Virus record (IMG/VR): IMGVR_UViG_3300028610_002494
Coordinates: 32,001 to 96,000 of that record
DNA from: a virus
Direction: 5' to 3' (one strand)
Length of the DNA stretch: 64,000 bases
The translations under genes and the position numbers were made by a program. Shown one piece after another: positions 3,263 to 32,329 of this stretch. The notes under the pieces were generated by a model that ran no database searches, was not told where the DNA came from, and saw only the letters and a list, made by a program, of their open reading frames with translations. The first letter of the stretch is position 1, and each line of letters begins with the position of its first letter.

Positions 3263-4696
3263 ATGGAAACAAGATATCATTTTAAACATGATACAATTTA
3301 TTGTGGAGATAATTTAAGGGTTTTAAAATACTTTCCAGATGAGTGTGTAGATTTAATTTATATAGATCCACCATTCTTTAGTGGAAAGAATTATGATTTA
3401 GTATTTGGAGATAAATATGCAATTAGAGCATTTCAAGATACTTTTGAAGGAAAGAAAGAAACATATCTTTCGTTTATGGAAGACAGAATACGACATTTAC
3501 ATAGAATCTTAAAACCTACAGGAAGTTTTTATTTACATTGTGATCATCATGCATCTCATTATCTAAAGGTAATATGTGATGCAATATTTAATAAAGAAAA
3601 TTTTAAAGCTGATATAATATGGAAAAGAACGATTCAAGTGAAAAATGTAAAGAAAAATTATAGTAGGAATATAGATTATATATTATTTTATACTAAAAGT
3701 AATTCTTATACATTTAATACACAATATACACCACTAAGAAAAGAACAAATAAAAAAATATTATAATAATATAGAAAAAGAAACTGGTAGAAGATATAATC
3801 ATTCAGGATTAACAAGAAAAGGAAGTGGGATTAATAAATTAAAATTTCATGATAAAGGAACTATATCCACTCCTCTTGGTGTGTCTTTTGGTTGGTCTCA
3901 AGAAACATATGAAAAAGAATATAAAAAAAATCCACTCTGTATTCACTGGTCAAAAAATAATAAACCTCGAAAAAAGATATATTTAGATGAACATAAAGGT
4001 ATTCCTTTAACTATTTTATGGGATGATATACCAGAACTGCCAACAAATAGTAGTGAGAGACTTGGTTATCCAACACAAAAACCTGAAGCTTTATTAGAGA
4101 GAATCATTAAAGCAAGTTCAAATGAAAAAGATATAATTCTTGATTCTTTTTGTGGTTGTGGAACAAGTTTGGTTGTTGCAGAAAAACTAAATAGAAAATG
4201 GATTGGAATAGATGTTTCACCAATTGGTTGCACTGTTATGGCAAAAAGAATAGGATACCAACTAAAAAATATACAGGGAATGAAATATTCATTAAAACAA
4301 GCAAAAGAGTTAGATTGGATGGATTTCCAAAAATGGACAATTAAATCAATAGATGGAATTCCTCTAACAAAGAAAGGAGCAGATAAAGGAATAGATGGTT
4401 GGCAAAACAACAATAAATTCAATGAAAGTGTTCCAGTTGAAGTAAAACAACATAAAATAAACTATAATGATGTATTAAAGCTTAATTCTGTTATTGAAAG
4501 AGAAAAGAAGAAAGGTGGGTTTATGATTGCTTTTGAAATAACTAAACCTGCTTCAATAGAAATAAAAAGATTAAAAAGAACAACTAAAAGAGATATTGTA
4601 TTCATTAGTTTTGATGATTTATTTAATAGAGAAACCTTGTTAAAAAAAGGTGCTATTAAACCAACAATGTTAGAAAGACATTTTAAAGTAAAATAA
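3263..4696 (+). CDS. N6A/N4C DNA methyltransferase (beta class) with C-terminal Mrr/REase-like domain
   Basis: IYIDPPF motif IV, YPTQKP, DSFCGCG motif I; C-terminal GADKGIDG...VEVK PD-(D/E)xK-like segment. Confidence 0.9.
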   Translation: METRYHFKHDTIYCGDNLRVLKYFPDECVDLIYIDPPFFSGKNYDLVFGDKYAIRAFQDTFEGKKETYLSFMEDRIRHLHRILKPTGSFYLHCDHHASHYLKVICDAIFNKENFKADIIWKRTIQVKNVKKNYSRNIDYILFYTKSNSYTFNTQYTPLRKEQIKKYYNNIEKETGRRYNHSGLTRKGSGINKLKFHDKGTISTPLGVSFGWSQETYEKEYKKNPLCIHWSKNNKPRKKIYLDEHKGIPLTILWDDIPELPTNSSERLGYPTQKPEALLERIIKASSNEKDIILDSFCGCGTSLVVAEKLNRKWIGIDVSPIGCTVMAKRIGYQLKNIQGMKYSLKQAKELDWMDFQKWTIKSIDGIPLTKKGADKGIDGWQNNNKFNESVPVEVKQHKINYNDVLKLNSVIEREKKKGGFMIAFEITKPASIEIKRLKRTTKRDIVFISFDDLFNRETLLKKGAIKPTMLERHFKVK

Positions 4697-5750: not shown

Positions 5751-6068
5751 ATGAATGAAAAAAGAAAAATAAAATTTAGAAAATTTAGTGATGAATATAA
5801 TATTAAAACATCTAAAGACTTTGAAAAACGAGAATATATACATAAAATAACAGAAAGATATTTTATTCCCACTTTTATAATATGTTTGTTATTATTATGT
5901 ATAGGATTGGTACTTTTATTAGATTGGTTAGTGGTTGTTGTATTAATATTATCTTCAATATCTATTATAATTTTAGCAATTAGTCTTATATATTCTATTA
6001 TAAATATGAATAAAAGTAAGAAAAAATGGAAAGAATATACGAAAAAAATAGAAAGCTTAAAGGTGTAA
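5751..6068 (+). CDS. Small membrane protein
   Basis: Two hydrophobic helices; AGGAG RBS. Confidence 0.6.
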   Translation: MNEKRKIKFRKFSDEYNIKTSKDFEKREYIHKITERYFIPTFIICLLLLCIGLVLLLDWLVVVVLILSSISIIILAISLIYSIINMNKSKKKWKEYTKKIESLKV

Positions 6069-6070
6069 AA

Positions 6071-7048
6071 ATGAGTAAAAGATTAACAAAAAGTTTTTTG
6101 GAAAAATATAGACCAAGAGTTAGGAAAGATATAGCTGGTAATTCTGTAGTTTTAGAAAGAATATTTAGCCAAATCGATCAAGGAACACTTGTGAATATGA
6201 TTCTCACAGGAGATTCTGGGTTAGGAAAAACTACAACAGCTGAAATTATAGCCAAAAAAATTATTGGAAAAGAACATTATTATACAGACTGTGTAATTTT
6301 CAATTGTAGTGATAAAACTGGTGTTAATAACATAAGAACTGAAATCATATCATTAGAAAAACTGAGACCACCAAGTGGCATAAGAATTTTTTTAATGGAA
6401 GAAAGTGAACAACTCAGTAAAAAAGCACAATTTGCACTTAAGAAAGCAATGGAATATCCTTATGATAAATCTAATAGGTTTATATTCTTAAGTAATAATA
6501 TAACTAAATTTATTCCAGCAATTAAAGACAGGTGTAGAATATATAATTATATGGCAATAAAACCAGATGAAATGTTTCCAAGACTTAAATATATTGTAGA
6601 ACAAGAAGAAATTGATATTTCTGGTAAATTATTACATACACTTGCTGAACTTTCAAATGGAAGTATGAGATATCCTATAATACAACTCGAGGAATTTAAA
6701 GCATTAAATAGAAAAATAATTGAAAAAGATATACAATTAGAAGAAAGTCTTGAAACAATTAAAATCATATTTAGTTTACTTAAATCAAGAAAAATTCCAC
6801 CTGCAAGGAATAAAATACTGGATTTATATCAAGATGGAAGTAATTTTAATAACATAATTAAGTATTTCCACGATTTTACGATGATGTCTTTAGGAAATAA
6901 CCTAAATTATAAATCTAAAGCAAAATGTTTGATTAAAATAGCTAAAACAGAACGAAATGTTAAGGAAGGATGTAATGAATTTATCCAAATAAGCTTTTTA
7001 TTATCAAATATAAGCATATTATTACAAAAAACAAAAACAGGTAATTAG
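6071..7048 (+). CDS. rfcS: Replication factor C small subunit (clamp loader)
   Basis: EKYRP, GDSGLGKTT, NCSD..G...IR, AQFALKKAME and IKDRC (SRC-like) motifs; ATG 6071 follows AGGTG. Confidence 0.9.
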   Translation: MSKRLTKSFLEKYRPRVRKDIAGNSVVLERIFSQIDQGTLVNMILTGDSGLGKTTTAEIIAKKIIGKEHYYTDCVIFNCSDKTGVNNIRTEIISLEKLRPPSGIRIFLMEESEQLSKKAQFALKKAMEYPYDKSNRFIFLSNNITKFIPAIKDRCRIYNYMAIKPDEMFPRLKYIVEQEEIDISGKLLHTLAELSNGSMRYPIIQLEEFKALNRKIIEKDIQLEESLETIKIIFSLLKSRKIPPARNKILDLYQDGSNFNNIIKYFHDFTMMSLGNNLNYKSKAKCLIKIAKTERNVKEGCNEFIQISFLLSNISILLQKTKTGN

Positions 7049-10624: not shown

Positions 10625-11635
10625 ATGTCTAAAGTTAAAGTTTATTCAATACAAAAACTACAGAAACAATTAAAATTGGAAAAGAACTTAGAAAAAAGAG
10701 AACAATTAAGATTAATTTTAGACGAGATGGCAGAAGTATATCCTGATGAATCTGAAATACCATCTGATCCAAGATCACTTTTTACAGTTCCCAAACAATG
10801 GAAAAGTAGTAATATGAAAAGAAAACTTGTAATGGCAGTATTAGGAGAAAGTTTCACTGGAAAAACATTTACTGCTTTAAGTTCAAGTCATCTCACTGCT
10901 AAACATATAAAGAATGATTTTAAAGTTGGTTTAACTATTGAAGAAATAGAATATTTCTTACAACAAATGAAAAGATACATTCCTTTTACACCAGTTTGGG
11001 TTATAGGCACAGAAGAAAGCACTTATGAATGCTTAACCAGTGATGATAATGAAGAATATTTTGAACATGCAAACATTAATTATGTTGAAGTATTGGCAAA
11101 AGGAAGTGGTTTAACACTATTAGACCAAATTAGAACCTATAAAAACTTTCTTATTGCAATTTATGCATTGTCTAACCTAAAAAGAGGAACAGTCATACTT
11201 GACAGTTCAAGTGGTGTACTTAGTGCTCAACATGAAATTGTTCGTAGAGTAATTGGTAAACTTCCTTCACTCAAAAAAGAACAAGGAATATTGCCAAGAC
11301 ATTGGTTCTGGAGAAATGTAGAAAGAGAAGGTATTATGTTCTGGGGAAGAATTATGCCTGTACATTTCATATTCACCATTAAAATCATAATGCAATCAGT
11401 TGAAGGTGGAAAAGACATAGAAAAAATAAAATGGTGGGAAGAAACTGACAGACATCTTTCGTCTATTATTATAAAGAACAAAAGAATCGGAAAACAAGCC
11501 AATTTTAATAGTACAATAGAAAAATGTAGGATAAACACAACTTTATATAATAAAACCTATAAAAATTTAACTATGCCACTTTTTATGTGGAGTTTAATAA
11601 ATGCCAAAAAAAGAAAAATAAAAGAGGAAATATAA
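10625..11635 (+). CDS. RecA/Sak4-like P-loop ATPase
   Basis: Walker A GESFTGKT, Walker B TVILDS, C-terminal IEKCR. Confidence 0.65.
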   Translation: MSKVKVYSIQKLQKQLKLEKNLEKREQLRLILDEMAEVYPDESEIPSDPRSLFTVPKQWKSSNMKRKLVMAVLGESFTGKTFTALSSSHLTAKHIKNDFKVGLTIEEIEYFLQQMKRYIPFTPVWVIGTEESTYECLTSDDNEEYFEHANINYVEVLAKGSGLTLLDQIRTYKNFLIAIYALSNLKRGTVILDSSSGVLSAQHEIVRRVIGKLPSLKKEQGILPRHWFWRNVEREGIMFWGRIMPVHFIFTIKIIMQSVEGGKDIEKIKWWEETDRHLSSIIIKNKRIGKQANFNSTIEKCRINTTLYNKTYKNLTMPLFMWSLINAKKRKIKEEI

Positions 11636-11637
11636 AA

Positions 11638-12495
11638 ATGTTAAAAGAAATGAACAAAAAAGATTTAATAACCATAAACAATCTTGTAAGAGTATCAACA
11701 GCATCTGGTGATGATAAAATTGAAAAATATATAATAGAGCTTAATAAAGAAGAAAAAGCACTATTTGTTGAAATTTTCCAACCATCAGGTAAATTTGCTG
11801 TGTGTCTAAGAAAAGAAATGGAAGATATAGTTAAAGATGAACTAATTCCAATTGTTGATAGTGGAGAACTTAATGAAATACTTACTAAAATTATAGAAGG
11901 TGATGATATTGATCTTTCTGTTAAAAATAATAAAGTTCTCATTAAATCAAGCAAAGATAATATTGACGACAACATTGAACTTCCATATTATGAAGAAACC
12001 AAAGATGAAAAAGAATCAAGAGAAATGGTAAAGAAATCCTTTAAAACAAGAAAATATGGAAATGTAAACAACATCCTTACTTTTTATGGAATAGCAAATA
12101 AAGAAGACCCAAAACCTGATGCAGTATGTAAGGTTGACCTAAAAAGACTTAACATCAAAAATATTGCAACTGTATTTAATAAAGGTGCAATAGAAGTTGG
12201 CACCAAAAAAGGAACTTTTTACATTACTGTTGGTGGAGGAACACAAAAGCAGAGTAAAAACATAAAAAGAACAATAAAAAAAGGAGAAACTAAAGACCCA
12301 ATGAACATAAAAGGAGAAAGTACAGCATTACTTCAAGACATAAATTGTTTTTCCTTACTTTCTGGTTTCTCAGGACTTGTACACATTGATATGAAAGAAG
12401 ATTTTCCATTTGTGTTAAAAAAGAAAATAGCTGAACATAGAATTGGAATTTGTTATTTGATAAGCTTATTAGAAGTTGAAGAAACAGAAGAATAA
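11638..12495 (+). CDS. Divergent DNA sliding clamp (PCNA-like)
   Basis: About 285 aa; C-terminal VHIDMKEDFPFVL...ICYLISLLEVE matches the PCNA end pattern; RFC and a PIP-box PolB are in the same genome; ATG 11638 after GAGG. Confidence 0.6.
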   Translation: MLKEMNKKDLITINNLVRVSTASGDDKIEKYIIELNKEEKALFVEIFQPSGKFAVCLRKEMEDIVKDELIPIVDSGELNEILTKIIEGDDIDLSVKNNKVLIKSSKDNIDDNIELPYYEETKDEKESREMVKKSFKTRKYGNVNNILTFYGIANKEDPKPDAVCKVDLKRLNIKNIATVFNKGAIEVGTKKGTFYITVGGGTQKQSKNIKRTIKKGETKDPMNIKGESTALLQDINCFSLLSGFSGLVHIDMKEDFPFVLKKKIAEHRIGICYLISLLEVEETEE

Positions 12496-13020: not shown

Positions 13021-13542
13021 ATGGAAAAAATAAAAAAGATAAAATTTGAACTAATTCAAATGGAAAAGAATTATCAAACAAACAAGTCCATTTTCGTGAA
13101 AGACAGAACAATATTTATAGTTGGAAGATCAAATAAGTTAGGTAAAAAAATATTTTTCGTAAATGATTTTTATCCAAGGTTTTATGTAGAAAAAGGAGAA
13201 AATATAGATTTCATCATTGAAGAACATAAAGATAAAATAAAAGAAATTAAAACTAAAGAAGATGGTGAAGAATATAACTACAAAAATCTTGGAGGAAAAG
13301 AAGAACTTATTACAATTTACATTTATAAAACTTCAGATATTGAGATAAGAGATTTGTTTAGCAAAACATATCAAGCAAATATTAAATTTACTGAAGTTTT
13401 TAAAAGGGAAAAACTCATAAAAGATAATTTTTATGTTCCAGAATACGTTTTTGAAATGAAAACAAGAACTTTCAAAATATATGGAATAGAATACATAATG
13501 ATAAAAGAAAATGAGATTGATGGAGGAGAATTGATATTTTAA
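13021..13542 (+). CDS. Stand-alone family B DNA polymerase N-terminal domain
   Basis: IFIVGR...VNDFYPRFYV and IRDLFSKTYQANIKF match PolB NTD motifs (F.PYFY; T.EADI.F); the PolB at 28024 lacks this domain. Confidence 0.7.
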   Translation: MEKIKKIKFELIQMEKNYQTNKSIFVKDRTIFIVGRSNKLGKKIFFVNDFYPRFYVEKGENIDFIIEEHKDKIKEIKTKEDGEEYNYKNLGGKEELITIYIYKTSDIEIRDLFSKTYQANIKFTEVFKREKLIKDNFYVPEYVFEMKTRTFKIYGIEYIMIKENEIDGGELIF

Positions 13543-13907
13543 AAATATACATCTCAGGTGCTGTAGAAGACTCAGAAATAATAAATGAATTAGCAAGATA
13601 TTTTGAAAAATGTAAATGTAAAATAACTCGAAAATGGTGGCACTTTACTACTGAAGATATAATGAGATATCCATTATATATAGAAGAAGATATTAAAGCA
13701 ATCAGAAAATGTGACTTATTTATAATGTATAATACCAATAAAAAAACAAGTGGTAAATTTATAGAACTTGGCATGGCTATTATATTGAATAAACCTATTT
13801 TAATTTATGGAAAAGACATAACAAGTATGTTTAAATCAAGAACACAATATTGTGGAGAATTTAATATTCAAAAAGAGGAGAAAAGATGGAAACTAAAAAA
13901 GAATTAA
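13536..13907 (+). CDS. Nucleoside 2-deoxyribosyltransferase / N-glycosidase-like protein (extended upstream, non-canonical start)
   Basis: LKIYISGA...EDIKAIRKCD...SGKFIELGMAIILNKP; frame open back to TGA at 13518; GGAGG at 13522. Confidence 0.75.
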   Translation: MLKIYISGAVEDSEIINELARYFEKCKCKITRKWWHFTTEDIMRYPLYIEEDIKAIRKCDLFIMYNTNKKTSGKFIELGMAIILNKPILIYGKDITSMFKSRTQYCGEFNIQKEEKRWKLKKN

Positions 13908-14362: not shown

Positions 14363-15022
14363 TTGTCGTTAATGGATTTTATTGGAAATAAAAAACCATT
14401 GGAAGAATTTATCAAATCTAATAAAGAAGATATTAAATTCAAGAAAATTAAATTTGAAGATATAATCTTTAGTGCTTTCGTTCATTTAAAATGTATGAAT
14501 TGTGGAATGTATAAAAGAAATTATCACTGTTTAGCAACTCCAAGATGGAAAAAATCTAAAGAAAACTTATCAAAATATAATAATTATTACTTAGTTTACA
14601 TACAATTTGATAATAAACCAAGAATAAAGGATTATTTCAAGAAAAGAGAAGTGTTTAGAGCACAAGGAAGTAAAGGAATGAATGATTGGTTAATTTATAG
14701 GAATGCTTGTGGTGCAAATCAAGCAATCATAGTTAGTAAATTAAGAAAATTCTTGATAAATGTTAAAACACACTATTCTAAAGAAAAATTAAAACTTTTT
14801 GGTGCAGGTGGTGGATGTCGTGGTTGTAGAGTTTGTGGGTTGGTTAAACCACAAATGATTAAAGAACCAAGAGAACCATGTAAAAAACCAAACAAGACTT
14901 TTGGAGCACCTGAAAGTATCGGAATAGACGTATATGCAACTTTAAAGAGAAATAAAATAGAATATGATGTCATACCAAAAAATAAATTAATAACAGTAGG
15001 GTTGATATGTCAAAAACAATAA
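14363..15022 (+). CDS. DUF2284-like Cys-rich metal-binding protein
   Basis: CMNCGMY...C, GGCRGCRVC...C...APESIGIDVY. Confidence 0.7.
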   Translation: MSLMDFIGNKKPLEEFIKSNKEDIKFKKIKFEDIIFSAFVHLKCMNCGMYKRNYHCLATPRWKKSKENLSKYNNYYLVYIQFDNKPRIKDYFKKREVFRAQGSKGMNDWLIYRNACGANQAIIVSKLRKFLINVKTHYSKEKLKLFGAGGGCRGCRVCGLVKPQMIKEPREPCKKPNKTFGAPESIGIDVYATLKRNKIEYDVIPKNKLITVGLICQKQ

Positions 15023-15451
15023 ATTGTAATCTAAATTGTCCAGCTTGTCATACAAACATAACTAAGATGAAAGAACATCATTTAAATGAAGATTTAGCTG
15101 TATTTAGATGTTTTTATTGTGGATATACTCAAACTATTTCAAATAATGGAGAATTTGAACCACAAGAAGAATTGAATATATATTATAATGAATATATAAA
15201 AAAAGAAATTATGAAGTGAAAAAAGAAAATGGCATGGAAATTAAGAACTTTTAAATGTAAAATTAAAAATAGAGACTATATCTCTGAGATGTTTAAGATA
15301 AATAAAAGAACTTATAATTACACAACAACCTTAGATGGTAAAGTTATTGCTCATGAAGAAAATCTCGAAATGGAGACAGCAGTTATACTTGAAGATCACA
15401 TTAAAGAAATAATTAAAAAAGAAAAAAGAATTTATCAAATGGAAAATTAAA

Positions 15452-16066
15452 ATGAGTCTTGAAAAATTTATAGGTATAAAAAGAGTAATAGATAACACAA
15501 TACCATCAGTTTTTATACATATTTTAGGTGGTCATAGTACTGGAAAGTCTGGAATAGTTGGAAGAATAAAACAAAAATATGGTGCTAAAATTATGGCACT
15601 TGGTAAGTATTCAAGAAGTAGAACAACAAAAGGACTGCTAACTGGTGGAATGGATGGAATACAGATGACCAACAAAGAACGATTTAAATACATTAAAAGA
15701 CATTTTCTTTCAAATAAACAAGTGTTATTGTGTGAAGGAATGATGGTTATTTATTATGATTCTTTTTTAAGCAAATACTATGAACTACAGAAAATAAAAC
15801 ACAGAACTGTTTATGTAATATTACTACAAACTGATATTGAAACAATGCGAAAAAGAATATCTAAAAGAAGTAAAGGAAAAGAACATAGTGAAAAAAGAGA
15901 AAGAAATTTAAGATCAAAAGCAAGTTGTTCTGAATCAACTTATAATAGACTTGAAGAAAATAGTACATTTATTAAAACTAAATTCGATACATCAGATTCT
16001 AAGATTTTTGATAATATAGTTATATATATATCTGAAATTATTGACAAAACACTAAAAAAGGAATAA
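15452..16066 (+). CDS. P-loop nucleotide/DNA-base kinase of the type associated with aGPT-PPlase systems
   Basis: GGHSTGKS, LGKY...GGMDGI, LLCEG, RISKRS lid; near the amino acid:DNA transferase gene. Confidence 0.75.
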   Translation: MSLEKFIGIKRVIDNTIPSVFIHILGGHSTGKSGIVGRIKQKYGAKIMALGKYSRSRTTKGLLTGGMDGIQMTNKERFKYIKRHFLSNKQVLLCEGMMVIYYDSFLSKYYELQKIKHRTVYVILLQTDIETMRKRISKRSKGKEHSEKRERNLRSKASCSESTYNRLEENSTFIKTKFDTSDSKIFDNIVIYISEIIDKTLKKE

Positions 16067-16068
16067 AT

Positions 16069-16641
16069 ATGGATTTTTTGATAAGAAAAATTAAAAATGA
16101 AAATGATAAAACACAAATTAAAATAATTTGTGAAAGTGTGGACAATAAAACAGTGAAATCTTTTCCTAATATTTGGGAAAGATTTAATAACTGGGAAAAG
16201 AATCCACCTTATGTTGTTGAAATAGATGGAAAGATAATTGCTTTTATGGGATTCACGATTAATAGAAATAATTATATTAATTTTTATGATTTTGCAGTTT
16301 TACCTGAATACCAAAGAAAAGGTATTGGTTCAGCTTTATGGGATAAGGTTATTAAAATTGCAACAGAAAATAGTAAAACAAGAATAAAATGTTCTGCTCA
16401 CATAGATTATGGTGGATATTTCTTTTACACTAAGAAAGTTAATTGGAAACCAATTGCAAGAAAAGGGAAAGAATATAAATTTGATGCTTTAATTGAAGGA
16501 ATTGATAATATTAATGATTTTACAAAAAGTATAAAGAAACAAACTCCACCAGATAAAAAAGAGATTGAAAGATATCAGAGATTAGATGAGTATTTTTATA
16601 ACTTAACTAAAAAAATATGGGAGTACTTTAAAAAATGTTAG
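16069..16641 (+). CDS. GNAT acetyltransferase
   Basis: FAVLPEYQRKGIGSAL acetyl-CoA motif; GYFFY. Confidence 0.85.
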   Translation: MDFLIRKIKNENDKTQIKIICESVDNKTVKSFPNIWERFNNWEKNPPYVVEIDGKIIAFMGFTINRNNYINFYDFAVLPEYQRKGIGSALWDKVIKIATENSKTRIKCSAHIDYGGYFFYTKKVNWKPIARKGKEYKFDALIEGIDNINDFTKSIKKQTPPDKKEIERYQRLDEYFYNLTKKIWEYFKKC

Positions 16642-17240
16642 AAACAATTGATGAAGAAGATAAAATAATTAGGAAATTAACTTTTAAAGAAAAATTAGAA
16701 ATTGGAAAATGTGGAGAAAAAATTACAGATGAGAGAATAGTAGATATAATCCATTTCTTTACAGCTTATAATTCACCAAGAAGATGGTATATAGAAAAAA
16801 GTGTATATCAAAAACTATCTCCATATGAAAGATATAAAAAATACCAAGGCAACGGAATTGATGGATTACTTCATTATGATAGCTTATTAGTTCAAGTAAA
16901 AACAAGACAACTTGCATATCTCTTAGAAGAAGACATATATTTTGAATTAGGAAGAAGTATAAAAGGAATAAATAAATATAGTGGATGGTATTGGAAAAAT
17001 ATTGATTTATTATTATATTATTTTTATAGCTTAACAAAAAAGAAGATAATGTGTGGATATGTTATACTTCTGGATGAATTTAAGAAAACATATAACACTC
17101 CTGTAAAAATTAATAAGAAGTTTGAAATAAAATGTGATTGGAACTTTAATCCAACAAAAATATATTTTTGTCCTAAATTTAAAGATTTTCCAAATAATTC
17201 ATTTTATGATATAACACCAATAGTAAAGGAGCTGGAATAA
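16635..17240 (+). CDS. PD-(D/E)xK nuclease-fold protein
   Basis: GE...GIDGL...VQVKTR...DIYFE. Confidence 0.65.
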   Translation: MLETIDEEDKIIRKLTFKEKLEIGKCGEKITDERIVDIIHFFTAYNSPRRWYIEKSVYQKLSPYERYKKYQGNGIDGLLHYDSLLVQVKTRQLAYLLEEDIYFELGRSIKGINKYSGWYWKNIDLLLYYFYSLTKKKIMCGYVILLDEFKKTYNTPVKINKKFEIKCDWNFNPTKIYFCPKFKDFPNNSFYDITPIVKELE

Positions 17241-17241
17241 A

Positions 17242-17658
17242 ATAAAACTAATTCCTGATGTAACAGATAAAACATTAGAAACAAAGAAATTTAATCCAAA
17301 ATTAATTTATGAATCTATATTAAGAGAAACTGATATTTCTGAAGAAGATGCTAAAAGAATTATGGAAGAAGTTGTAAGAAAATTAGTTTTTATGGGTAAA
17401 AAAATAAAGTTCCTATCTGCTCGAATGATAAGAGAAACGACAAATGCAACATTTCCAGAATATGGATTTGAAGAAGAAAGAAAAAAATATACAGTAATTG
17501 GAATTCCATTCTATGATTTAAAAAATTGGGTTGAAGATAAAACCTTAATTCAAACAGAAATTGATAAAAAAATAGTAGAACATATTAGAACTGAATATTT
17601 AAATGTAGAAAACCTAATAGAAACAATAAGAAATGGAGAAAATAATGAGAGATTATAA
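17242..17658 (+). CDS. Stand-alone ATP-cone protein (archaeal NrdD N-terminus-like), extended upstream from an ATA start
   Basis: FNPKLIYESILRETDISEEDAKRIMEEV...FLSARMIRE; frame open from 17227; AGGAG RBS. Confidence 0.7.
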   Translation: MKLIPDVTDKTLETKKFNPKLIYESILRETDISEEDAKRIMEEVVRKLVFMGKKIKFLSARMIRETTNATFPEYGFEEERKKYTVIGIPFYDLKNWVEDKTLIQTEIDKKIVEHIRTEYLNVENLIETIRNGENNERL

Positions 17659-18763
17659 TATAACAGACTACAGAACTGAAAGATGGAATGGTTTTAAGGA
17701 TTATTATATTAAAGAAATGTACTGTGGTGATGATCCAAATTATCCTGCTTTAAATTATATTTGTGATAAATTAAAACTAACTGAAGAACAGAGATATTGG
17801 ATTGCATTCTTATATGGAACTAATTATTGTGTTCCAACAACATATTACATTTTTAAGGAATTTCCTGATTATGAAAGAATAGATATTGACGAACTACAAC
17901 ATTGGTGGGATAAAAATAAAGAAAAAACACATTTCCAAACAGACAGAGCAAAAGTAAAGAACTTTAATTATTTTGTAAAATGTGTTGAAAGCTATCAAGA
18001 TTTAGTAGGAAAAAACCAAGTAGAAACTTTTGATATATTTACTGAAATAGATGATAATCAAGAAAAATATAAAATGGTTTATGATTTTACTAATGAAATA
18101 TTTTATTTTGGAAGATTTAGTTTATTTAATTATCTTGAAACAATTAATAAACTCACTAATTTAGAAATGGAACCAGATGGTTTAGATCTTAAATATGCAG
18201 AGAGTGCACGTAATGGACTATGTTATGCTTGTAATAAAGAAGAGTTTATCACATTACATCACAAAAAATCAAAAGAAAAGATAAATTATAGGTATTTACA
18301 AGAAAAACTCGAAACAATTGTATATGAATTAAAAGAAGAGAACCCTGAGATTGATGTAAACTACTGGAATGTTGAAACTGTTTTATGTGCATATAAAAAA
18401 CTATTCTGGAACACAAGATATCTTGGTTATTATATTGATAGACAAATGGAAGATATAATTAAATTGCAGAATAATGTAGATATAATAGATTGGAAAATTC
18501 TATGGGATTTTAGAGCTGAATTTCATCATCCACAATTTCTTGGTGAATTTAATGACTGGAATGGGATAAGAGAAGAGAACAAGTATTATGTAACAAAACA
18601 TGGAATACTTGATATTAAAGAATTTCCTAAATATAAAACCTGTTTAAGAAAAGTTGATTTACAATCTACTAAAAAACCAAAATTAATAAACAACTTAGAA
18701 CATTATAAAAGAAGAATAATAAGCAAAAAACCTAAACCAAAAAAAATATGGGAATATTTTTAA
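17633..18763 (+). CDS. Amino acid:DNA transferase (alpha-glutamyl/putrescinyl-thymine pyrophosphorylase clade 2-like)
   Basis: QRYWIAFLYG, F.TDR, FGRFSLFNYLE (HhH-like), ETVLCAYKK and YLGYYIDRQ motifs; start may be 17645. Confidence 0.8.
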   Translation: MEKIMRDYNITDYRTERWNGFKDYYIKEMYCGDDPNYPALNYICDKLKLTEEQRYWIAFLYGTNYCVPTTYYIFKEFPDYERIDIDELQHWWDKNKEKTHFQTDRAKVKNFNYFVKCVESYQDLVGKNQVETFDIFTEIDDNQEKYKMVYDFTNEIFYFGRFSLFNYLETINKLTNLEMEPDGLDLKYAESARNGLCYACNKEEFITLHHKKSKEKINYRYLQEKLETIVYELKEENPEIDVNYWNVETVLCAYKKLFWNTRYLGYYIDRQMEDIIKLQNNVDIIDWKILWDFRAEFHHPQFLGEFNDWNGIREENKYYVTKHGILDIKEFPKYKTCLRKVDLQSTKKPKLINNLEHYKRRIISKKPKPKKIWEYF

Positions 18764-18776
18764 AAAGAGGTGAAAT

Positions 18777-19016
18777 ATTATAACAAATCATAAAGAAATA
18801 AGATACAAAATCTGTTTTAATTGTAAGGTGTTTATGCCAATTTTCACTTGTGATGCCATTAATCTACAAGAACTAACAAATTTCGAAAGAATACATAATG
18901 AACATATGGTTCAAACTATAAACTACAACGAAATACCTACAAATTATATATTTATTAAAGGCAAAAATGCAAGAGAAAGAACTTTAACACAAATTCAAAA
19001 AATGTTAGAAGTATGA
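18777..19016 (+). CDS. Small Cys/His Zn-binding protein (ATT/ATA start)
   Basis: YKICFNCKVFMPI...HNEH; GAGGTGA RBS at 18767. Confidence 0.6.
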   Translation: MITNHKEIRYKICFNCKVFMPIFTCDAINLQELTNFERIHNEHMVQTINYNEIPTNYIFIKGKNARERTLTQIQKMLEV

Positions 19017-19174
19017 AAAAATGTAAGGGATGTGGATATCCTCAAAATCCACCAAATAGCAATAAAATTTGGTTATCTGAGGATGGTCTATGTTCAATAT
19101 GTTATTCAAAACAAATAAAACTTAAAAAAAATAATAAAAAACCTAAAAAAATATGGGAATATTATGATAATTAA
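19013..19174 (+). CDS. 53-aa Zn-finger protein ending in KKIWEYY, absent from the ORF track
   Basis: MKKCKGCG...CSIC...KKPKKIWEYYDN*. Confidence 0.7.
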   Translation: MKKCKGCGYPQNPPNSNKIWLSEDGLCSICYSKQIKLKKNNKKPKKIWEYYDN

Positions 19175-19655
19175 AATAAAGAAAATGGGAAGAAATGTAA
19201 AATTACCAACAAAACAAAGAGAAGGAGATGCTGGATATGATGCTTATATTTATGGTTTCCAGAAATATACTCAAAATAAAATTAATAAAAATAAAAATCC
19301 AGTTAATTTGAATAGATCAGAATATATTTTAGAACCATTAGAAAGGGTTGATTGTAGATTAGGATTTGCCACAGAAATTCCTGAAGGATATTATGCTCAA
19401 ATTGTACCAAGAAGTGGTTTAGCAATTTGGAATGGTTTAACTGTATTAAATACACCTGCTACAATTGATTCTGGTTTCAGAAATGAATGGATGGTGATAA
19501 TTGTTAATATTTCTGATAAAAAAGTGAAGTTAATAGTTGGAGACAGAATTTGTCAAATAATCATAAGAAAATTGGTGGAATTTGAATTTAAAGAAGTTAA
19601 AAAATTAAATAAATCTGAAAGAAATTTAAATGGATTAGGGAGCACAGGAAAATGA
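19164..19655 (+). CDS. dut: Trimeric dUTPase
   Basis: AGYD, PRSGLA, TIDSGFR, GDRICQ, GLGSTG. Confidence 0.95.
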   Translation: MIIKIKKMGRNVKLPTKQREGDAGYDAYIYGFQKYTQNKINKNKNPVNLNRSEYILEPLERVDCRLGFATEIPEGYYAQIVPRSGLAIWNGLTVLNTPATIDSGFRNEWMVIIVNISDKKVKLIVGDRICQIIIRKLVEFEFKEVKKLNKSERNLNGLGSTGK

Positions 19656-28023: not shown

Positions 28024-30381
28024 TTGAGAAGAAGATTCACATTTGATATAGAAATTAATTATGATGAAATAGACCCATTTGATTTAGTAATTAAAAAAGG
28101 ATCAAGTCCTATTCAAATGTTTGGTTGTTATGATTATTATAAAAATAAATTTTATTCCTTTTTTTATCATAAAAACGTGAAATTAATACCTGCAGAAGAA
28201 ATTAAAAATAAAATTGATAAAAAAATATATTTAATGCTTAAAAAACATTTTGGAAATCAAAAATTTGTTGTTAAAGAAGGATTTTTTAATTCTACTGAAA
28301 GTGGAAGAAAATGGAAATGTAGATATCTTTCTTTTAATAATGAAAAAATAATGATTAGAGCATTTATGAAATTTGTTAAAGATATCAGTCCAGACATTTG
28401 GTCTGGGTTCTTTATTGAAACATTTGATCTTGTTTATATTATGAACAGATGTAAAACACTAAAAGTTAGTTATAAATATTTAAGTCCACTTTATGAAGCT
28501 TATATAAGTCATGGAAGAGCTAAAATAAGAGGAAGTATAATATATGACACTCCTAAAACTTATGCTAAATATATGGGAACTCATCGTCATGCTAATTCAC
28601 TGAAAAAAATAGCTGAATCACATCTGAAAAGAGATGATGACCACAAAATAACTAAAACATCTGAAAGTATTATAAACGAAGATTGGTATGATAATGATTG
28701 GAAAAAATTCATAGAATATTGTTTAGTAGATGTAGAATTATGTGTTTTATTAGAAGAAGAACTTGAACTAATAAGCATGGCAGAAGGATTTGAAAAATTT
28801 ACTGGAACCAACCCTGAATTTGTATTTTTTCCTTCTCATCTAATTGAAAGTACATTTAATTTCATTAAACCTATTTATGAAGAACAAGTATTAAAAAATG
28901 AATATAAAATTGCATTTAACACTAAAAAGAGAAGAAAATTTGAGAAAGCAGCAGGTGCAAAAGTATTAGAAAGTAAAAAAGGATTTTATCGAAAAGGATT
29001 AATGATAATCCTTGATCTTGCAAAAGAATATCCAAAAATAATAGAAAGTATAAATATATCACCTGAAACTTTAGTTAAAATAATAGATCAAAATGAGAAA
29101 GACAAATACAATTATTGTAAAGAAAATGATGTATATTATGTTAAAGAACCAATAGGATTTGTTCCTTTTGCTTTTAAATTTCTTTATTTAATAAGAGATC
29201 GTATAGAAAAAGAAAGAGATAAATTTGAATTTGGTTCTGATAAATTTAATGATATGAACAAAAAAAGACAAACAGTAAAAGATTTGATAAATGCTGTCAC
29301 AGGTCAAGCTGATTATGCAGACTCAATTATTCTTAGTCCAATATGTGCTAATTCATGTAGATTAACTGGACAAAAAGAAATAGTAATATCTGTTAATTAC
29401 ACAAAAAAATTTGGTATTGAATTAAAATTAAAACTTAAGGTTATTTATGGTGATACTGATTCTATTTTTGTTTGGTTAGAAAATGTACAAGATGTTGAGA
29501 TTGCAAAGAAAATAGCTAAAGAAATATGTAAATGGATACAAGTTGGGTTTGATAAATATGCAAAAGAACTAAATTTAAAATCTCACCAATTTGAAATAGG
29601 TTTAGAAAAAATATTAGATATTTTTGTTAGTATAGGCAAAAAGAAAAAGTATTTTGGGCATATTTTATGGGCAGATGGTAATTATGTAAAAGAAGAAAGC
29701 AGTTTACTTGTAAAAGGATTTGAGACAAGAAGATCAGACAGTAGTGATTTTACAGATAAAATACAAAAAGAAATATTTGGATTAATAAACAAAACAAGAA
29801 TATTAGGATGGCATAAAGTAAGAAAAAAAATACTACATAAAATAAAAGTGGAATATCCAGATGGGTTTTCAGAAGATAATTTACTTACAATTGGAATACC
29901 TAAAAAAATAAATAAACGATTTAAAGATTACAAAGTGACAAATGCTCATCTAAGAGGATGTGAATATGCTAATAAATATGTTAATGCTAATTTTCATGCT
30001 GGTTCTAAACCTAAATTGATTTATATTAAAGAGGTTAAACAAAAAGGTGATATAACTTTTCCAAAAAAATATCCACCAACAGATGTATTATGTGTGCAAG
30101 AAGGTATGAAAATTCCAGAAGGAGTTTTTATTATTGACAAAAAAACAATGCTGGAAAAAACAGTTTATAAAAAATTAAGACAAACACTTGATGTTGTAGG
30201 AATACCAATATCACAAATACAAAGTGGATTGAAACAAACTAATATAAAAGATTATTTTAATAAATTTAGTAATGACAAAAAAATAACGAAAAAACATATT
30301 TTAACTATAAATAAAGAAAAGTTAGGTAAAATATTAATTAACTCTAAAAATATTCTTAAAACTATGAAAAAAGAGGTTTAA
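28024..30381 (+). CDS. polB: Family B DNA polymerase (exonuclease and polymerase domains, no NTD)
   Basis: ExoI FDIE, ExoIII YCLVD, motif C YGDTDS, KKKY, KGFE.RRSD, C-terminal PIP box QTNIKDYF. Confidence 0.95.
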   Translation: MRRRFTFDIEINYDEIDPFDLVIKKGSSPIQMFGCYDYYKNKFYSFFYHKNVKLIPAEEIKNKIDKKIYLMLKKHFGNQKFVVKEGFFNSTESGRKWKCRYLSFNNEKIMIRAFMKFVKDISPDIWSGFFIETFDLVYIMNRCKTLKVSYKYLSPLYEAYISHGRAKIRGSIIYDTPKTYAKYMGTHRHANSLKKIAESHLKRDDDHKITKTSESIINEDWYDNDWKKFIEYCLVDVELCVLLEEELELISMAEGFEKFTGTNPEFVFFPSHLIESTFNFIKPIYEEQVLKNEYKIAFNTKKRRKFEKAAGAKVLESKKGFYRKGLMIILDLAKEYPKIIESINISPETLVKIIDQNEKDKYNYCKENDVYYVKEPIGFVPFAFKFLYLIRDRIEKERDKFEFGSDKFNDMNKKRQTVKDLINAVTGQADYADSIILSPICANSCRLTGQKEIVISVNYTKKFGIELKLKLKVIYGDTDSIFVWLENVQDVEIAKKIAKEICKWIQVGFDKYAKELNLKSHQFEIGLEKILDIFVSIGKKKKYFGHILWADGNYVKEESSLLVKGFETRRSDSSDFTDKIQKEIFGLINKTRILGWHKVRKKILHKIKVEYPDGFSEDNLLTIGIPKKINKRFKDYKVTNAHLRGCEYANKYVNANFHAGSKPKLIYIKEVKQKGDITFPKKYPPTDVLCVQEGMKIPEGVFIIDKKTMLEKTVYKKLRQTLDVVGIPISQIQSGLKQTNIKDYFNKFSNDKKITKKHILTINKEKLGKILINSKNILKTMKKEV

Positions 30382-31570: not shown

Positions 31571-32329
31571 ATGAGAATATTTAAGAACAAAATTATCTTA
31601 GGAAATTGTTTAGATATCTTAAAATTTATAGATGATCAAGTAGATTTAGTTTTAACTGATCCACCACAATATAGATTAATTAATGATGATATTAAACTAA
31701 ATAATAGAAAAGATTTTGTAAGAAAAGCCAATTTTGATTTATTTAATTCATATAAAGATTTCCTTATTTTCACTGAAAAATGGATTAAATTAACATCAGA
31801 ACTGATGACTAATAACTCAACAATATATATTTCATATGCTGAACAATTCTCAAATGACCTAATTAATATTTGTAAAAACTATGATTTATCATATTTTGAT
31901 ACATTTTATTGGCATAAAACCAACCCAATGCTACAGATCAGAAAAAGAAACTTTAGATCATCAGTAGAGACAACCCTAATATTTACAAGAGGAAAATACA
32001 CATTTAATTTCTTAGAACAGAGTAAAATGCATGATTTTATGGAATTGCCAATATGTTTAGGAAAAGTAAGACTAAAGAATAAAAAAGGTGGAACATTACA
32101 TCCAACACAAAAACCATTAAAACTAATCAAGCATTTTGTTAGAATCTCATCTAACATTGGAGATAAAGTATTGGATCCATTCTCTGGCACTGGAACAACA
32201 AATGTTGCCTGTAAAATGTTAAATAGAAAATGTTTAGGTATAGAAATTAATGAGGAATATTATTTAGCAAGTATTAAAAGATTAAATAAAATAAATACCA
32301 CAAAATCAGGTGTATTAGGTTGGTTATAA
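31571..32329 (+). CDS. N4C/N6A DNA methyltransferase (beta class)
   Basis: TDPPQY, HPTQKP, DPFSGTG. Confidence 0.9.
   Translation: MRIFKNKIILGNCLDILKFIDDQVDLVLTDPPQYRLINDDIKLNNRKDFVRKANFDLFNSYKDFLIFTEKWIKLTSELMTNNSTIYISYAEQFSNDLINICKNYDLSYFDTFYWHKTNPMLQIRKRNFRSSVETTLIFTRGKYTFNFLEQSKMHDFMELPICLGKVRLKNKKGGTLHPTQKPLKLIKHFVRISSNIGDKVLDPFSGTGTTNVACKMLNRKCLGIEINEEYYLASIKRLNKINTTKSGVLGWL

What the first reader, a model, noticed from the sequence alone, without database searches (positions are those of the whole stretch)
14363..19174. Modification enzymes share terminal PIP-box-like tags: a clamp-tethered modification machine?
Seen: three unrelated proteins end in almost the same peptide: GNAT TKKIWEYF(KKC), transferase PKKIWEYF*, and an unannotated 53-aa Zn finger (19013-19174) PKKIWEYY(DN)*. 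Two others start alike: DUF2284-like MSLMDFIG and kinase MSLEKFIG. PolB has a canonical PIP box (QTNIKDYF), the two DNA MTases end PTMLERHF and SGVLGWL, and the SLOG protein contains QETQLYKYL. Known: PIP boxes (QxxhxxAr-Ar) dock proteins on PCNA. Inference: the viral clamp (11638-12495) recruits the modification pathway to nascent DNA through a virus-specific PIP variant, giving replication-coupled hypermodification. I do not know of this being described.
Basis: partly seen in the sequence, partly recalled or inferred. Interest (0 to 1): 0.88.

Follow-up and report, generated by a model that had tools for sequence, protein, structure and literature searches.

The report
Clamp-docking tags on viral DNA-modifying enzymes
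In this uncultured, probably archaeal virus, several unrelated enzymes that chemically decorate the viral DNA carry the same short peptide at one end; it most likely hooks them onto the virus's own ring-shaped DNA clamp so that new DNA is modified as it is copied, but binding is predicted, not measured.

Summary
KKIWEY[FY] occurs three times in the 111.8-kb genome. Each copy ends a different, unrelated protein of a thymidine-hypermodification-type cluster: a GNAT, an amino-acid:DNA transferase (ADDT) and a 53-aa Zn ribbon.

- **Relatives:** A syntenic relative (clamp 47% identical) carries [KR][KR][IV]WDY on the Zn ribbon and on an unrelated DNA glycosyltransferase. In the ADDT family the tag ends a lineage-specific, variable, low-confidence extension.
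- **Clamp:** 11638-12495 has no Pfam hit but folds as PCNA (Foldseek E about 1e-12).
- **Docking:** A complex prediction puts Zn-ribbon residues 41-51 at the topological equivalent of the PIP pocket. The score is ipSAE 0.73, best control 0.01 (mark reached by 58/80 solved complexes, 2/110 mismatched pairs). This is support, not proof, and may reflect likeness to solved PCNA-PIP complexes.
- **Known clamp clients:** The virus's FEN1-like nuclease ends in QINLAKFL. PolB has QTNIKDYF after its thumb.
- **N-terminal motif:** MSLxxF[IL]G is also an appended, conserved peptide, but its binding is untested.
- **At chance level:** The methyltransferase tails and the internal QETQLYKYL.

This scan has noted similar clamp tags on other genomes. 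I found no paper describing them.

The parts
11638..12495 (+). Divergent PCNA-fold sliding clamp (285 aa), the proposed hub
   Evidence: It has no Pfam, PHROG or PDB sequence match. The AF2 model has pLDDT 81 and pTM 0.84. Foldseek finds archaeal and eukaryotic PCNAs at E about 1e-12, prob 1.00, TM 0.6-0.74. There are 25 homologues in metagenomes.
6026..7048 (+). RFC small-subunit-like AAA+ clamp-loader protein
   Evidence: Pfam Rep_fac_C 8.8e-10, DNA_pol3_delta2 2.9e-9, AAA. It is 68% identical to its counterpart in L005.
14363..15022 (+). DUF2284 metal-binding protein with an appended N-terminal MSLMDFIG (nt 14363-14386)
   Evidence: PF10050 4.3e-18, with the match starting at residue 28. 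The L005 orthologue starts MSLNKFLG. The TTG start lies 9 nt behind AGGAG.
15452..16066 (+). P-loop kinase, a candidate 5-hmdU DNA kinase by context only, with an N-terminal MSLEKFIG (nt 15452-15475)
   Evidence: Only weak AAA_17/AAA_18 hits. Three of the closer homologues (42-58% identical, one a fragment) carry MSLKNYLN, (MIKL)SLNSFLG and MSLREFLK. Two others have N-terminal extensions without a clear motif. More distant homologues start right at the P-loop strand.
16069..16641 (+). GNAT acetyltransferase; tag KKIWEYF at nt 16609-16629, followed by KKC*
   Evidence: PF00583 4.9e-15. It is 58% identical to the GNAT half of the ADDT-GNAT fusion P0031. That fusion's tail is instead ..GNLSNWLNKK.
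17633..18763 (+). Amino-acid:DNA transferase (ADDT/AADT); tag KKIWEYF at nt 18740-18760
   Evidence: PF18724 6.9e-20. The tag ends a clade-specific extension absent from most homologues. In the AF2 model, residues 330-363 have pLDDT below 50 and there is a one-turn helix at IWEY.
19013..19174 (+). 53-aa Zn-ribbon protein of no known family; tag KKIWEYY at nt 19145-19165
   Evidence: Homologues P0028 (..SKKIWEYYKN) and L005:13153-13320 (..NKRIWDYGE). Residues 41-51 are predicted to contact the clamp.
30235..30258 (+). PolB (28024-30381) PIP-type motif QTNIKDYF, just after the thumb domain
   Evidence: PF00136 / PF03104. The motif aligns with RKSLFEYI in the L005 PolB, while the tail beyond it is not conserved.
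32306..32329 (+). Tail KSGVLGWL* of N6/N4 DNA methyltransferase 31571-32329; a possible PIP-like tail, not verified
   Evidence: PF01555 2.9e-40. The motif fits xxxhxxWL, but such cores occur by chance in about 10% of windows. Homologues were not examined.
4661..4696 (+). Tail PTMLERHFKVK* of the DNA methyltransferase-Mrr fusion 3263-4696; a possible PIP-like tail, not verified
   Evidence: PF01555 1.4e-45 plus Mrr_cat. The motif is at chance level.

Best explanation
KKIWEY[FY] is a lineage-specific, non-canonical PIP-type docking peptide. In the relative it reads [KR][KR][IV]WDY.

Shown directly:
- The virus encodes its own replication set: PolB, an RFC-like loader, a FEN1-like nuclease and a very divergent PCNA-fold clamp.
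- Enzymes that work on the DNA polymer in a thymidine-hypermodification-type pathway have each acquired the peptide at the C-terminus. These are the amino-acid:DNA transferase and the GNAT acetyltransferase here, and a TAGT DNA glycosylase-type glycosyltransferase in the relative. A small Zn-ribbon protein carries it too.

Predicted: the peptide inserts its Ile, Trp and Tyr-Phe/Tyr side chains into the pocket between the two clamp domains, under the interdomain connector.

Inferred:
- Clamps left on nascent DNA therefore carry the modifying enzymes along it. Up to three clients could ride one trimer.
- New DNA would then be modified processively and promptly.
- The kinase and DUF2284 proteins carry a second flavour at the N-terminus (MSLxxF[IL]G, resembling the LAKFL of the FEN1-like tail). 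It probably uses the same site.
For: 1. The tag is real and modular. There are three copies in the genome, all C-terminal, on non-homologous proteins.
2. It is conserved as a peptide, with conservative changes (K/R, I/V, E/D), in a syntenic virus whose clamp is only 47% identical. There it sits on the Zn-ribbon orthologue and on an unrelated PF20691 TAGT glycosyltransferase.
3. In the ADDT family most homologues end at ..RKVxFxSIGDVY. Only the window's clade has a variable, K-rich extension, and in five of its seven members that extension ends in a PIP-like core: KKIWEYF (x3), KSIWDYV, NLNKWIKSK. A sixth ends GLGRWI and a seventh QKISDVIG. The linker has pLDDT below 50, with a one-turn helix at the tag.
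4. The orthologous GNAT in an ADDT-GNAT fusion carries a different PIP-like tail, LSNWLNKK.
5. The hub candidate folds as PCNA. An RFC-like gene is present.
6. Known clamp clients in this genome carry PIP-type motifs at the expected places. The FEN1-like protein ends SKKQINLAKFLK*. PolB has QTNIKDYF, aligned to KSLFEYI in L005. The shared core is h-x-[DE]-Y-h.
7. Complex prediction of clamp plus Zn-ribbon protein:
   - ipSAE 0.73, best of 3 controls 0.01. The mark was reached by 58 of 80 solved complexes and 2 of 110 mismatched pairs.
   - The three runs share at least 88% of contacts, and the partner pLDDT is at least 68.
   - Contacts are partner residues 41-51 against clamp residues 47-54, 127-133, 256-257 and 274-281. 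By the order of secondary-structure elements these are the first-domain strand loop, the interdomain connector and the C-terminal strand and tail. I read that as the PIP site; no residue-level superposition on a PCNA-PIP structure was made.
   - PCNA-PIP complexes are solved, so this pass shows likeness rather than independent proof.
8. All tagged enzymes belong to classes shown elsewhere to act on the DNA polymer after replication (PMC8989533).
Against: - No binding has been measured.
- The tag lacks the PIP glutamine.
- The L005 variants end ..WDY* or ..WDYGE, so the second aromatic is not conserved.
- The invariant Trp sits at a position that is variable in canonical PIP boxes. A different recognition mode or a different partner therefore remains possible.
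- Predicted interface residues are only slightly more conserved than the rest of the clamp (0.80 vs 0.75, permutation p = 0.09).
- Genome context is available for only two tagged lineages.
- The controls were unrelated proteins, not scrambled or mutated tags.
- The kinase has no detectable similarity to characterised 5-hmdU DNA kinases. No thymidylate-synthase-type hydroxymethylase is present. The chemistry of the pathway is therefore uncertain.
Confidence: 0.6

Rival explanations
1. The shared peptides dock on a common partner other than the viral clamp. Candidates are a scaffold that assembles a multi-enzyme modification complex, PolB, the RFC-like loader, the acidic-tailed 8800-10593 protein, or the conserved 10625-11635 ATPase-like protein.
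For: The motif departs from the PIP consensus: it has no Gln, it has an invariant Trp, and the second aromatic is dispensable in L005. Several conserved proteins of unknown function lie next to the clamp. The clamp interface is not significantly more conserved than the rest of the protein.
Against: The only partner tested, the clamp, passes with a large margin over controls. The contacts fall on elements that correspond to the PIP site. PolB and the FEN1-like protein carry related motifs where clamp-binding motifs are expected.
Confidence: 0.17
2. The tags bind the host's PCNA rather than, or in addition to, the viral clamp. This would either use host clamps on viral DNA or compete with host clients.
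For: PIP-type peptides are often promiscuous among PCNAs (established knowledge). The host is unknown, and the relatives come from marine sediment including Loki's Castle.
Against: The tag flavour changes together with the viral clamp between the two lineages. Pocket positions 47, 53, 54, 149, 184, 274, 275, 277, 278 and 280 differ in the L005-type clamp. The virus's own clamp is predicted to bind. No host sequence was available to test.
Confidence: 0.1
3. The conservation is at the nucleic-acid level. The tag-coding DNA (..AAAATATGGGARTAY..) would be a Shine-Dalgarno-like or regulatory element for the downstream gene, or a recently copied DNA cassette without peptide function.
For: In four of five cases the next gene starts within a few bases of the tag. 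The three window copies are nearly identical as DNA.
Against: - The Shine-Dalgarno motif enriched in this genome is GAGGT / AGGT, not TGGGA.
- The spacing from the tag to the next start varies: 2, 5 and 11 nt, and tens of nt after the ADDT gene.
- The motif never occurs between genes or in another frame.
- At 24% GC, codon bias alone explains the DNA identity.
- In protein homologues the tag is kept at the end of linkers of different length and sequence, with conservative amino-acid changes.
Confidence: 0.04

Closest known systems
PIP-box clients of archaeal and eukaryotic PCNA (FEN1, PolB, DNA ligase, RFC large subunit; consensus QxxhxxAr-Ar)
   Same: It is a short terminal peptide with a hydrophobic residue three positions before an aromatic pair. 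In the ADDT it follows a flexible linker. It is predicted to sit at the topological equivalent of the PIP site on a PCNA-fold clamp. The virus's own FEN1-like protein has the canonical form QINLAKFL at its C-terminus.
   Different: There is no Gln (Pro, Thr or Lys instead). There is an invariant Trp and an acidic residue in the 'x x' positions. The second aromatic is lost in the relative. The clamp has no sequence similarity to PCNA. The clients are DNA-hypermodification enzymes.
Eukaryotic DNMT1-PCNA coupling (replication-coupled maintenance methylation; DNMT1 is listed among PCNA clients in PMC5264654, the rest is from my own knowledge)
   Same: A DNA-modifying enzyme is tethered to the replication clamp by a PIP-type motif.
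   Different: Here a whole multi-step pathway (transferase, acetyltransferase, probably kinase) and a Zn-ribbon protein share one tag. The clamp is virus-encoded.
T4/RB69 gp45 clamp ligands, and the proposed T4 alpha-glucosyltransferase-gp45 interaction
   Same: Phage proteins dock on a phage-encoded trimeric clamp through short terminal hydrophobic peptides. A base-modifying glucosyltransferase was proposed to ride the clamp.
   Different: The T4 alpha-GT-gp45 interaction was not reproduced in vitro or in vivo in a 2025 preprint (10.64898/2025.12.06.692756). No shared tag across T4 modification enzymes is described there. Foldseek ranks cellular PCNAs first for this clamp: all 46 hits printed are cellular PCNAs and no gp45 is among them.
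Thymidine hypermodification pathways of phages M6, ViI and PaMx11 (5-hmdU DNA kinase, amino-acid:DNA transferase, then trimming and acetylation; PMC5889632, PMC8989533)
   Same: A PF18724 transferase, a P-loop kinase, a GNAT and radical SAM enzymes are clustered. The transferase is about 30% identical to ViI-type phage proteins.
   Different: Those papers do not mention a clamp, PCNA or the replisome. Most homologues, including MAG-derived ones labelled WOR-3 and Paceibacterota, lack the tagged extension. The kinase here is not detectably similar to the phage kinases. No hydroxymethylase gene was found.

Membership tests
PIP box (PCNA-interacting peptide) | Consensus Q-x-x-[ILM]-x-x-[FYW]-[FYWL] | tested here: inconclusive
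   The tags read [PT]-K-K-I-W-E-Y-[FY]. Positions 4, 7 and 8 fit. Position 1 is not Gln. The L005 variants (RKVWDY*, KRIWDYGE*) lack position 8. The FEN1-like tail QINLAKFL and PolB QTNIKDYF fit fully.
PIP box (PCNA-interacting peptide) | Lies in a flexible terminal or linker region, outside the folded domain | tested here: met
   In ADDT, residues 330-363 have pLDDT below 50, and the linker varies in length and sequence among homologues. In the Zn-ribbon protein the linker is variable. In the GNAT the tag follows the conserved domain after only 2-3 residues.
PIP box (PCNA-interacting peptide) | Binds the hydrophobic pocket under the interdomain connector loop of the clamp | tested here: inconclusive
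   This is a prediction only. ipSAE is 0.73 against a best control of 0.01 (58/80 solved complexes and 2/110 mismatched pairs reach the mark). Contacts fall on clamp residues 47-54, 127-133, 256-257 and 274-281. The mapping to the PIP pocket rests on the order of secondary-structure elements, not on a superposition. The pass may reflect likeness to solved PCNA-PIP complexes. No measurement exists.
PCNA / sliding clamp | Two topologically similar beta-alpha-beta-beta-beta domains joined by a connector (PCNA fold) | tested here: met
   The AF2 model has pLDDT 81. Foldseek finds PCNAs at E about 1e-12, prob 1.00, TM 0.6-0.74.
PCNA / sliding clamp | Sequence membership in Pfam PCNA_N / PCNA_C | tested here: not met
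   There is no Pfam, PHROG or PDB sequence hit, even with a 19-sequence profile. It is a fold-level relative only.
PCNA / sliding clamp | Forms a closed trimeric ring loaded on DNA by an RFC-type loader | not tested
   An RFC-like gene is present. Oligomeric state and loading were not modelled or measured.
Thymidine hypermodification cluster (Lee et al. 2018, 2021) | aGPT-Pplase / amino-acid:DNA transferase | tested here: met
   PF18724 6.9e-20 and PF18746 8.2e-5. About 30% identity to proteins of ViI-type phages.
Thymidine hypermodification cluster (Lee et al. 2018, 2021) | 5-hmdU DNA kinase | tested here: inconclusive
   A P-loop kinase lies next to the transferase, but it has only weak AAA_17/18 hits and no tblastn match to any GenBank phage.
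Thymidine hypermodification cluster (Lee et al. 2018, 2021) | Source of 5-hmdU (dUMP hydroxymethylase of the thymidylate-synthase family) | tested here: not met
   There is no PF00303 match in the 111.8-kb genome, while the controls were found. A dUTPase-like gene is present at 19164-19655.

The most novel reading that the evidence does not exclude
The viral PCNA-like trimer acts as a tool belt for an assembly line of DNA hypermodification. Kinase, transferase and acetyltransferase would dock side by side through interchangeable terminal tags and modify nascent DNA processively and in order.

The tag would then be a portable address label meaning 'acts on newly made viral DNA'. That label could be used to discover unknown DNA-modifying or DNA-protecting proteins in uncultured archaeal viruses and phages, such as the Zn-ribbon and DUF2284 proteins here. 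Similar tags noted by this scan on other genomes would make this a general, undescribed principle of viral DNA modification.
Probability: 0.3. Interest if true: 0.85.

Novelty: new variant of a known kind. Interest (0 to 1): 0.68.

Why it matters
- **A mechanism for fast modification.** Hypermodified bases protect viral DNA from host nucleases only if they are installed quickly and nearly completely. How post-replicative enzymes achieve this on a rapidly replicating genome is not explained in the pathway papers (PMC5889632, PMC8989533). A shared clamp-docking tag would give a simple answer.
- **An independent case for a disputed idea.** The proposal that modification rides the clamp is contested in T4. 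This would be a second, sequence-based case.
- **A handle for discovery.** The tag could mark new DNA-modification enzymes and accessory proteins in uncultured viruses.
- **An odd clamp.** It also shows a PCNA-fold clamp so divergent that sequence methods miss it.

Tried and rejected
The contigs of the tagged ADDT, kinase and clamp homologues could therefore not be fetched, and co-occurrence of tag and clamp could be checked in only one relative (L005).
- The genome search by 'relatives' or by the L005 handle is not available for this record.

**Searches that found no close relatives**
- IMG/VR scans with the ADDT, the clamp profile and the PolB profile found none.
- A GTDB genome scan with the clamp profile found nothing.
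- tblastn against GenBank phages gave nothing for the clamp or the kinase. PolB matched only at 23-26% identity, to haloarchaeal tailed viruses and cyanophages.
- A profile search of the clamp against PDB sequences gave only noise.
- PHROGs gave nothing useful.
- The protein atlas returned only unnamed small zinc-ribbon-like clusters for the 53-aa protein.

**Analyses that did not help**
- An IMG/VR scan for KKIWEY-coding DNA returned 118 stretches. All were internal or in short spurious frames of unrelated viruses. This looks like chance and is not evidence either way.
- Conservation of the predicted clamp interface was not significant (p = 0.09).

**Explanations rejected**
- A Shine-Dalgarno or DNA-element explanation.

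**Not pursued**
- The C-terminal tails of the two methyltransferases and QETQLYKYL.

Full report
**What the DNA is.** The window is bases 32001-96000 of a 111,837-bp virus record with direct terminal repeats. It has 24% GC and essentially all genes lie on one strand. It encodes its own replication set:
- PolB at 28024-30381, and an RFC small-subunit-like AAA+ protein at 6026-7048;
- a topoisomerase IA and a DEAD-box helicase;
- a FEN1/XPG-like nuclease just upstream of the window (L133:10188-11174).

PolB is most similar, at about 25% identity, to polymerases of haloarchaeal tailed viruses and T4-like cyanophages. There are TrmB/ArsR-type HTH hits. The closest protein relatives come from sediment metagenomes, including Loki's Castle LCGC14. 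An archaeal host is likely but not shown.

**The observation.**
- KKIWEY[FY] occurs three times in the whole genome in any frame, each time at the C-terminus of an ORF: GNAT 16069-16641, the PF18724 amino-acid:DNA transferase 17633-18763, and a 53-aa CxxC..CxxC protein 19013-19174.
- From amino-acid composition the hexamer is expected 0.003 times. A hexamer shared by three C-termini arose in 0.17% of simulations.
- The N-terminal peptide MSL..FIG is shared by DUF2284 (14363) and the P-loop kinase (15452). A relaxed form of it occurs in 0.08% of internal windows but at 3 of 188 N-termini.
- A loose PIP core, by contrast, occurs in 10% of any 14-residue window in this K/I/F/Y-rich proteome. The methyltransferase tails (PTMLERHF, SGVLGWL) and the internal QETQLYKYL therefore carry no weight by themselves.

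**Is it a peptide or a DNA signal?** It behaves as a peptide.
- The tag-coding DNA is nearly identical in the three copies, but at 24% GC codon choice is almost forced.
- The Shine-Dalgarno motif enriched upstream of genes here is GAGGT/AGGT, not TGGGA.
- The distance from the tag to the next start codon varies widely.
- The motif never occurs between genes or out of frame.

**Comparative evidence.**
- *The relative L005.* One metagenomic relative with usable context (L005, clamp 47% identical) is syntenic from the helicase to PolB. Its Zn-ribbon orthologue ends NKRIWDYGE*. It lacks the transferase, kinase and GNAT. Instead it has a PF20691 TET-associated DNA glycosyltransferase that ends IRKVWDY*. 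The same tag, with conservative K/R, I/V and E/D changes, therefore sits on a different DNA-modifying enzyme in a diverged virus.
- *Zn ribbon.* A third Zn-ribbon homologue ends SKKIWEYYKN.
- *The ADDT family.* I inspected 120 homologues of 496 found. Most end at a conserved ..RKVxFxSIGDVY. Only the window's clade has a further variable, K-rich extension, and in five of its seven members it ends in a PIP-like core: KKIWEYF (three members), KSIWDYV, NLNKWIKSK. A sixth ends GLGRWI and a seventh QKISDVIG.
- *ADDT model.* In the AF2 model the core is confident, residues 330-363 have pLDDT below 50, and the last residues form a one-turn helix at IWEY.
- *Fusions.* Two relatives are ADDT-GNAT fusions. 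Their GNAT half is 58% identical to the window's GNAT up to ..Y[FL]YN, and then ends in a different PIP-like tail, LSNWLNKK.
- *Kinase.* Of the five closer full-length or fragmentary homologues (42-58% identical), three carry MSLKNYLN, (MIKL)SLNSFLG and MSLREFLK. Two have N-terminal extensions without a clear motif. More distant homologues start directly at the strand before the P-loop. The L005 DUF2284 orthologue starts MSLNKFLG.

Both termini thus behave as appended short linear motifs under selection.

**The hub.**
- 11638-12495 has no Pfam, PHROG or PDB sequence match, even as a 19-sequence profile.
- Its AF2 model (pLDDT 81, pTM 0.84) matches archaeal and eukaryotic PCNAs at Foldseek E about 1e-12, probability 1.00, TM 0.6-0.74.
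- Known clamp clients in this genome carry PIP-type motifs where they are expected. The FEN1-like nuclease ends SKKQINLAKFLK*. PolB has QTNIKDYF immediately after the conserved thumb, aligned with RKSLFEYI in the L005 PolB, while the tail beyond is unconserved.
- Aligned on the hydrophobic position, the motifs read: FEN1 L-A-K-F-L, PolB I-K-D-Y-F and L-F-E-Y-I, tags I-W-E-Y-F and V-W-D-Y, N-terminal peptides L-E-K-F-I and L-N-K-F-L.

**Docking test.** One complex prediction was allowed. I used the clamp profile and the whole Zn-ribbon protein, which belongs to no known family.
- The verdict was support: ipSAE 0.73 (three runs 0.71, 0.73, 0.75), best of three controls 0.01.
- In the tool's calibration that mark was reached by 58 of 80 solved complexes and 2 of 110 mismatched pairs. 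The runs share at least 88% of contacts, and the partner pLDDT is at least 68.
- The contacts are partner residues 41-51 (NKKPKKIWEYY) against clamp residues 47-54, 127-133, 149, 184, 231-233, 256-257 and 274-281.
- By the order of secondary-structure elements these are the loop and strand of the first domain, the interdomain connector region, and the last strand and C-terminal tail. I read that as the canonical PIP site. No residue-level superposition was made.
- Caveats: many PCNA-PIP complexes are solved, so the pass shows likeness and is not a measurement. The controls were unrelated proteins, not mutated tags. Interface residues are only marginally more conserved than average (p = 0.09).

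**Most likely mechanism.**
- *Shown:* a PCNA-fold clamp, an RFC-like loader, PIP-bearing PolB and FEN1-like proteins, and modular conserved terminal tags on enzymes of classes known to act on the DNA polymer after replication. PMC8989533 describes the kinase, the amino-acid:DNA transferase and the acetyltransferase. The TAGT assignment rests on its Pfam description as a TET-associated DNA glycosyltransferase.
- *Predicted:* the tag occupies the PIP pocket.
- *Inferred:* clamps left on nascent DNA recruit and carry the modifying enzymes, possibly several at once. Modification would then be coupled to replication and be processive. The Zn-ribbon protein could be an adaptor or a regulator competing for the same pocket.
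- *Uncertain:* the chemistry. The kinase is not detectably related to characterised 5-hmdU DNA kinases, and no thymidylate-synthase-type hydroxymethylase is present.

I put this at about 0.6. The main rival is docking to a different common partner (about 0.17). Host PCNA as the target is about 0.1. A nucleic-acid-level explanation is unlikely.

**Comparison with what is known.**
- Clamp docking by PIP-type peptides is textbook. DNMT1-PCNA is the classical coupling of a DNA-modifying enzyme to the clamp.
- In T4, an alpha-glucosyltransferase-gp45 interaction was proposed from in vitro data. A 2025 preprint did not reproduce it in vitro or in vivo (10.64898/2025.12.06.692756).
- The thymidine-hypermodification papers do not mention a clamp, PCNA or the replisome. 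Full-text searches for clamp-binding motifs on phage or archaeal-virus DNA-modification enzymes found nothing.
- Earlier notes of this same scan (unchecked AI notes) describe similar shared terminal tags on DNA-modifying enzymes in several T4-like phages and in an Asgard-archaeal element. The theme has been seen before on other DNA within this scan, with different tag sequences.

I class this as a new variant of a known kind: PIP-type clamp clients, with a new class of clients, a private tag and a very divergent clamp.

Noticed in passing
L133:10188-11174 (genome 30188-31174, just upstream of the window): A FEN1/XPG-like flap endonuclease (PF00867 9e-30, PF00752) ends in a canonical C-terminal PIP box, SKKQINLAKFLK*. 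I used it as an internal positive control.
   Followed up: partly
window 8800-10593; L003:53-871; L005:7233-8951: A 597-aa protein of no family has a long acidic C-terminal tail. The tail ends ..EDKEIW*..EDPDLW* and ..EEPDIW* in the three viruses. This resembles the acidic docking tails of single-strand DNA-binding proteins.
   Followed up: no
window 13021-13542; L003:4039-4611; L005:10916-11440: A conserved 173-aa protein (70% identity to L005) has an invariant C-terminal GGEL[IK]F*. Other notes of the scan propose it is a detached PolB N-terminal domain. I did not test this.
   Followed up: no
proteins P0031 and P0033 (metagenomic relatives): These are ADDT-GNAT fusion proteins (540 and 550 aa). 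The GNAT replaces the ADDT tail and carries a different PIP-like end..LSNWLNKK or ..VLYWLNKK. The fusion links the two enzymes functionally.
   Followed up: partly
ADDT homologues P0038-P0148: Most homologues outside the window's clade end in a strongly conserved [KR]K[VI]xFxx[IV]G[DN][VI]Y(E). This could be part of the fold or a docking motif of its own.
   Followed up: no
window 18764-19016: The ORF after the transferase is probably longer than the GTG-started 62 aa. An in-frame ATA at 18780 lies about 6 nt behind a strong GAGGTGA Shine-Dalgarno site, and the added N-terminus contains a CFNC motif (read from the sequence). This fits another note of the scan on ATA/ATT starts.
   Followed up: no
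whole genome G000: No thymidylate-synthase-family (PF00303) gene is present, although the cluster looks like a 5-hmdU-based hypermodification pathway. The precursor base is therefore unclear. L005 has a TET-associated-type glycosyltransferase instead of the transferase, kinase and GNAT set.
   Followed up: partly
L132:216-1901 (genome 216-1901): A 561-aa protein of no family starts MSPNSLKSFILG. It is the third N-terminal SLxxF[IL] match in the genome.
   Followed up: no
window 62190-63290 and genome 102855-111836: A C-terminal IDITL is shared by a 366-aa protein and a 2994-aa ORF that runs to the end of the record. They may share a domain, for example a fibre or adhesin module.
   Followed up: no
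window 13536-13907: A nucleoside 2-deoxyribosyltransferase-like gene (PF05014) appears to begin upstream of its first ATG, with no standard start codon. The L005 orthologue is 125 aa, against 81 aa from the ATG here.
   Followed up: no
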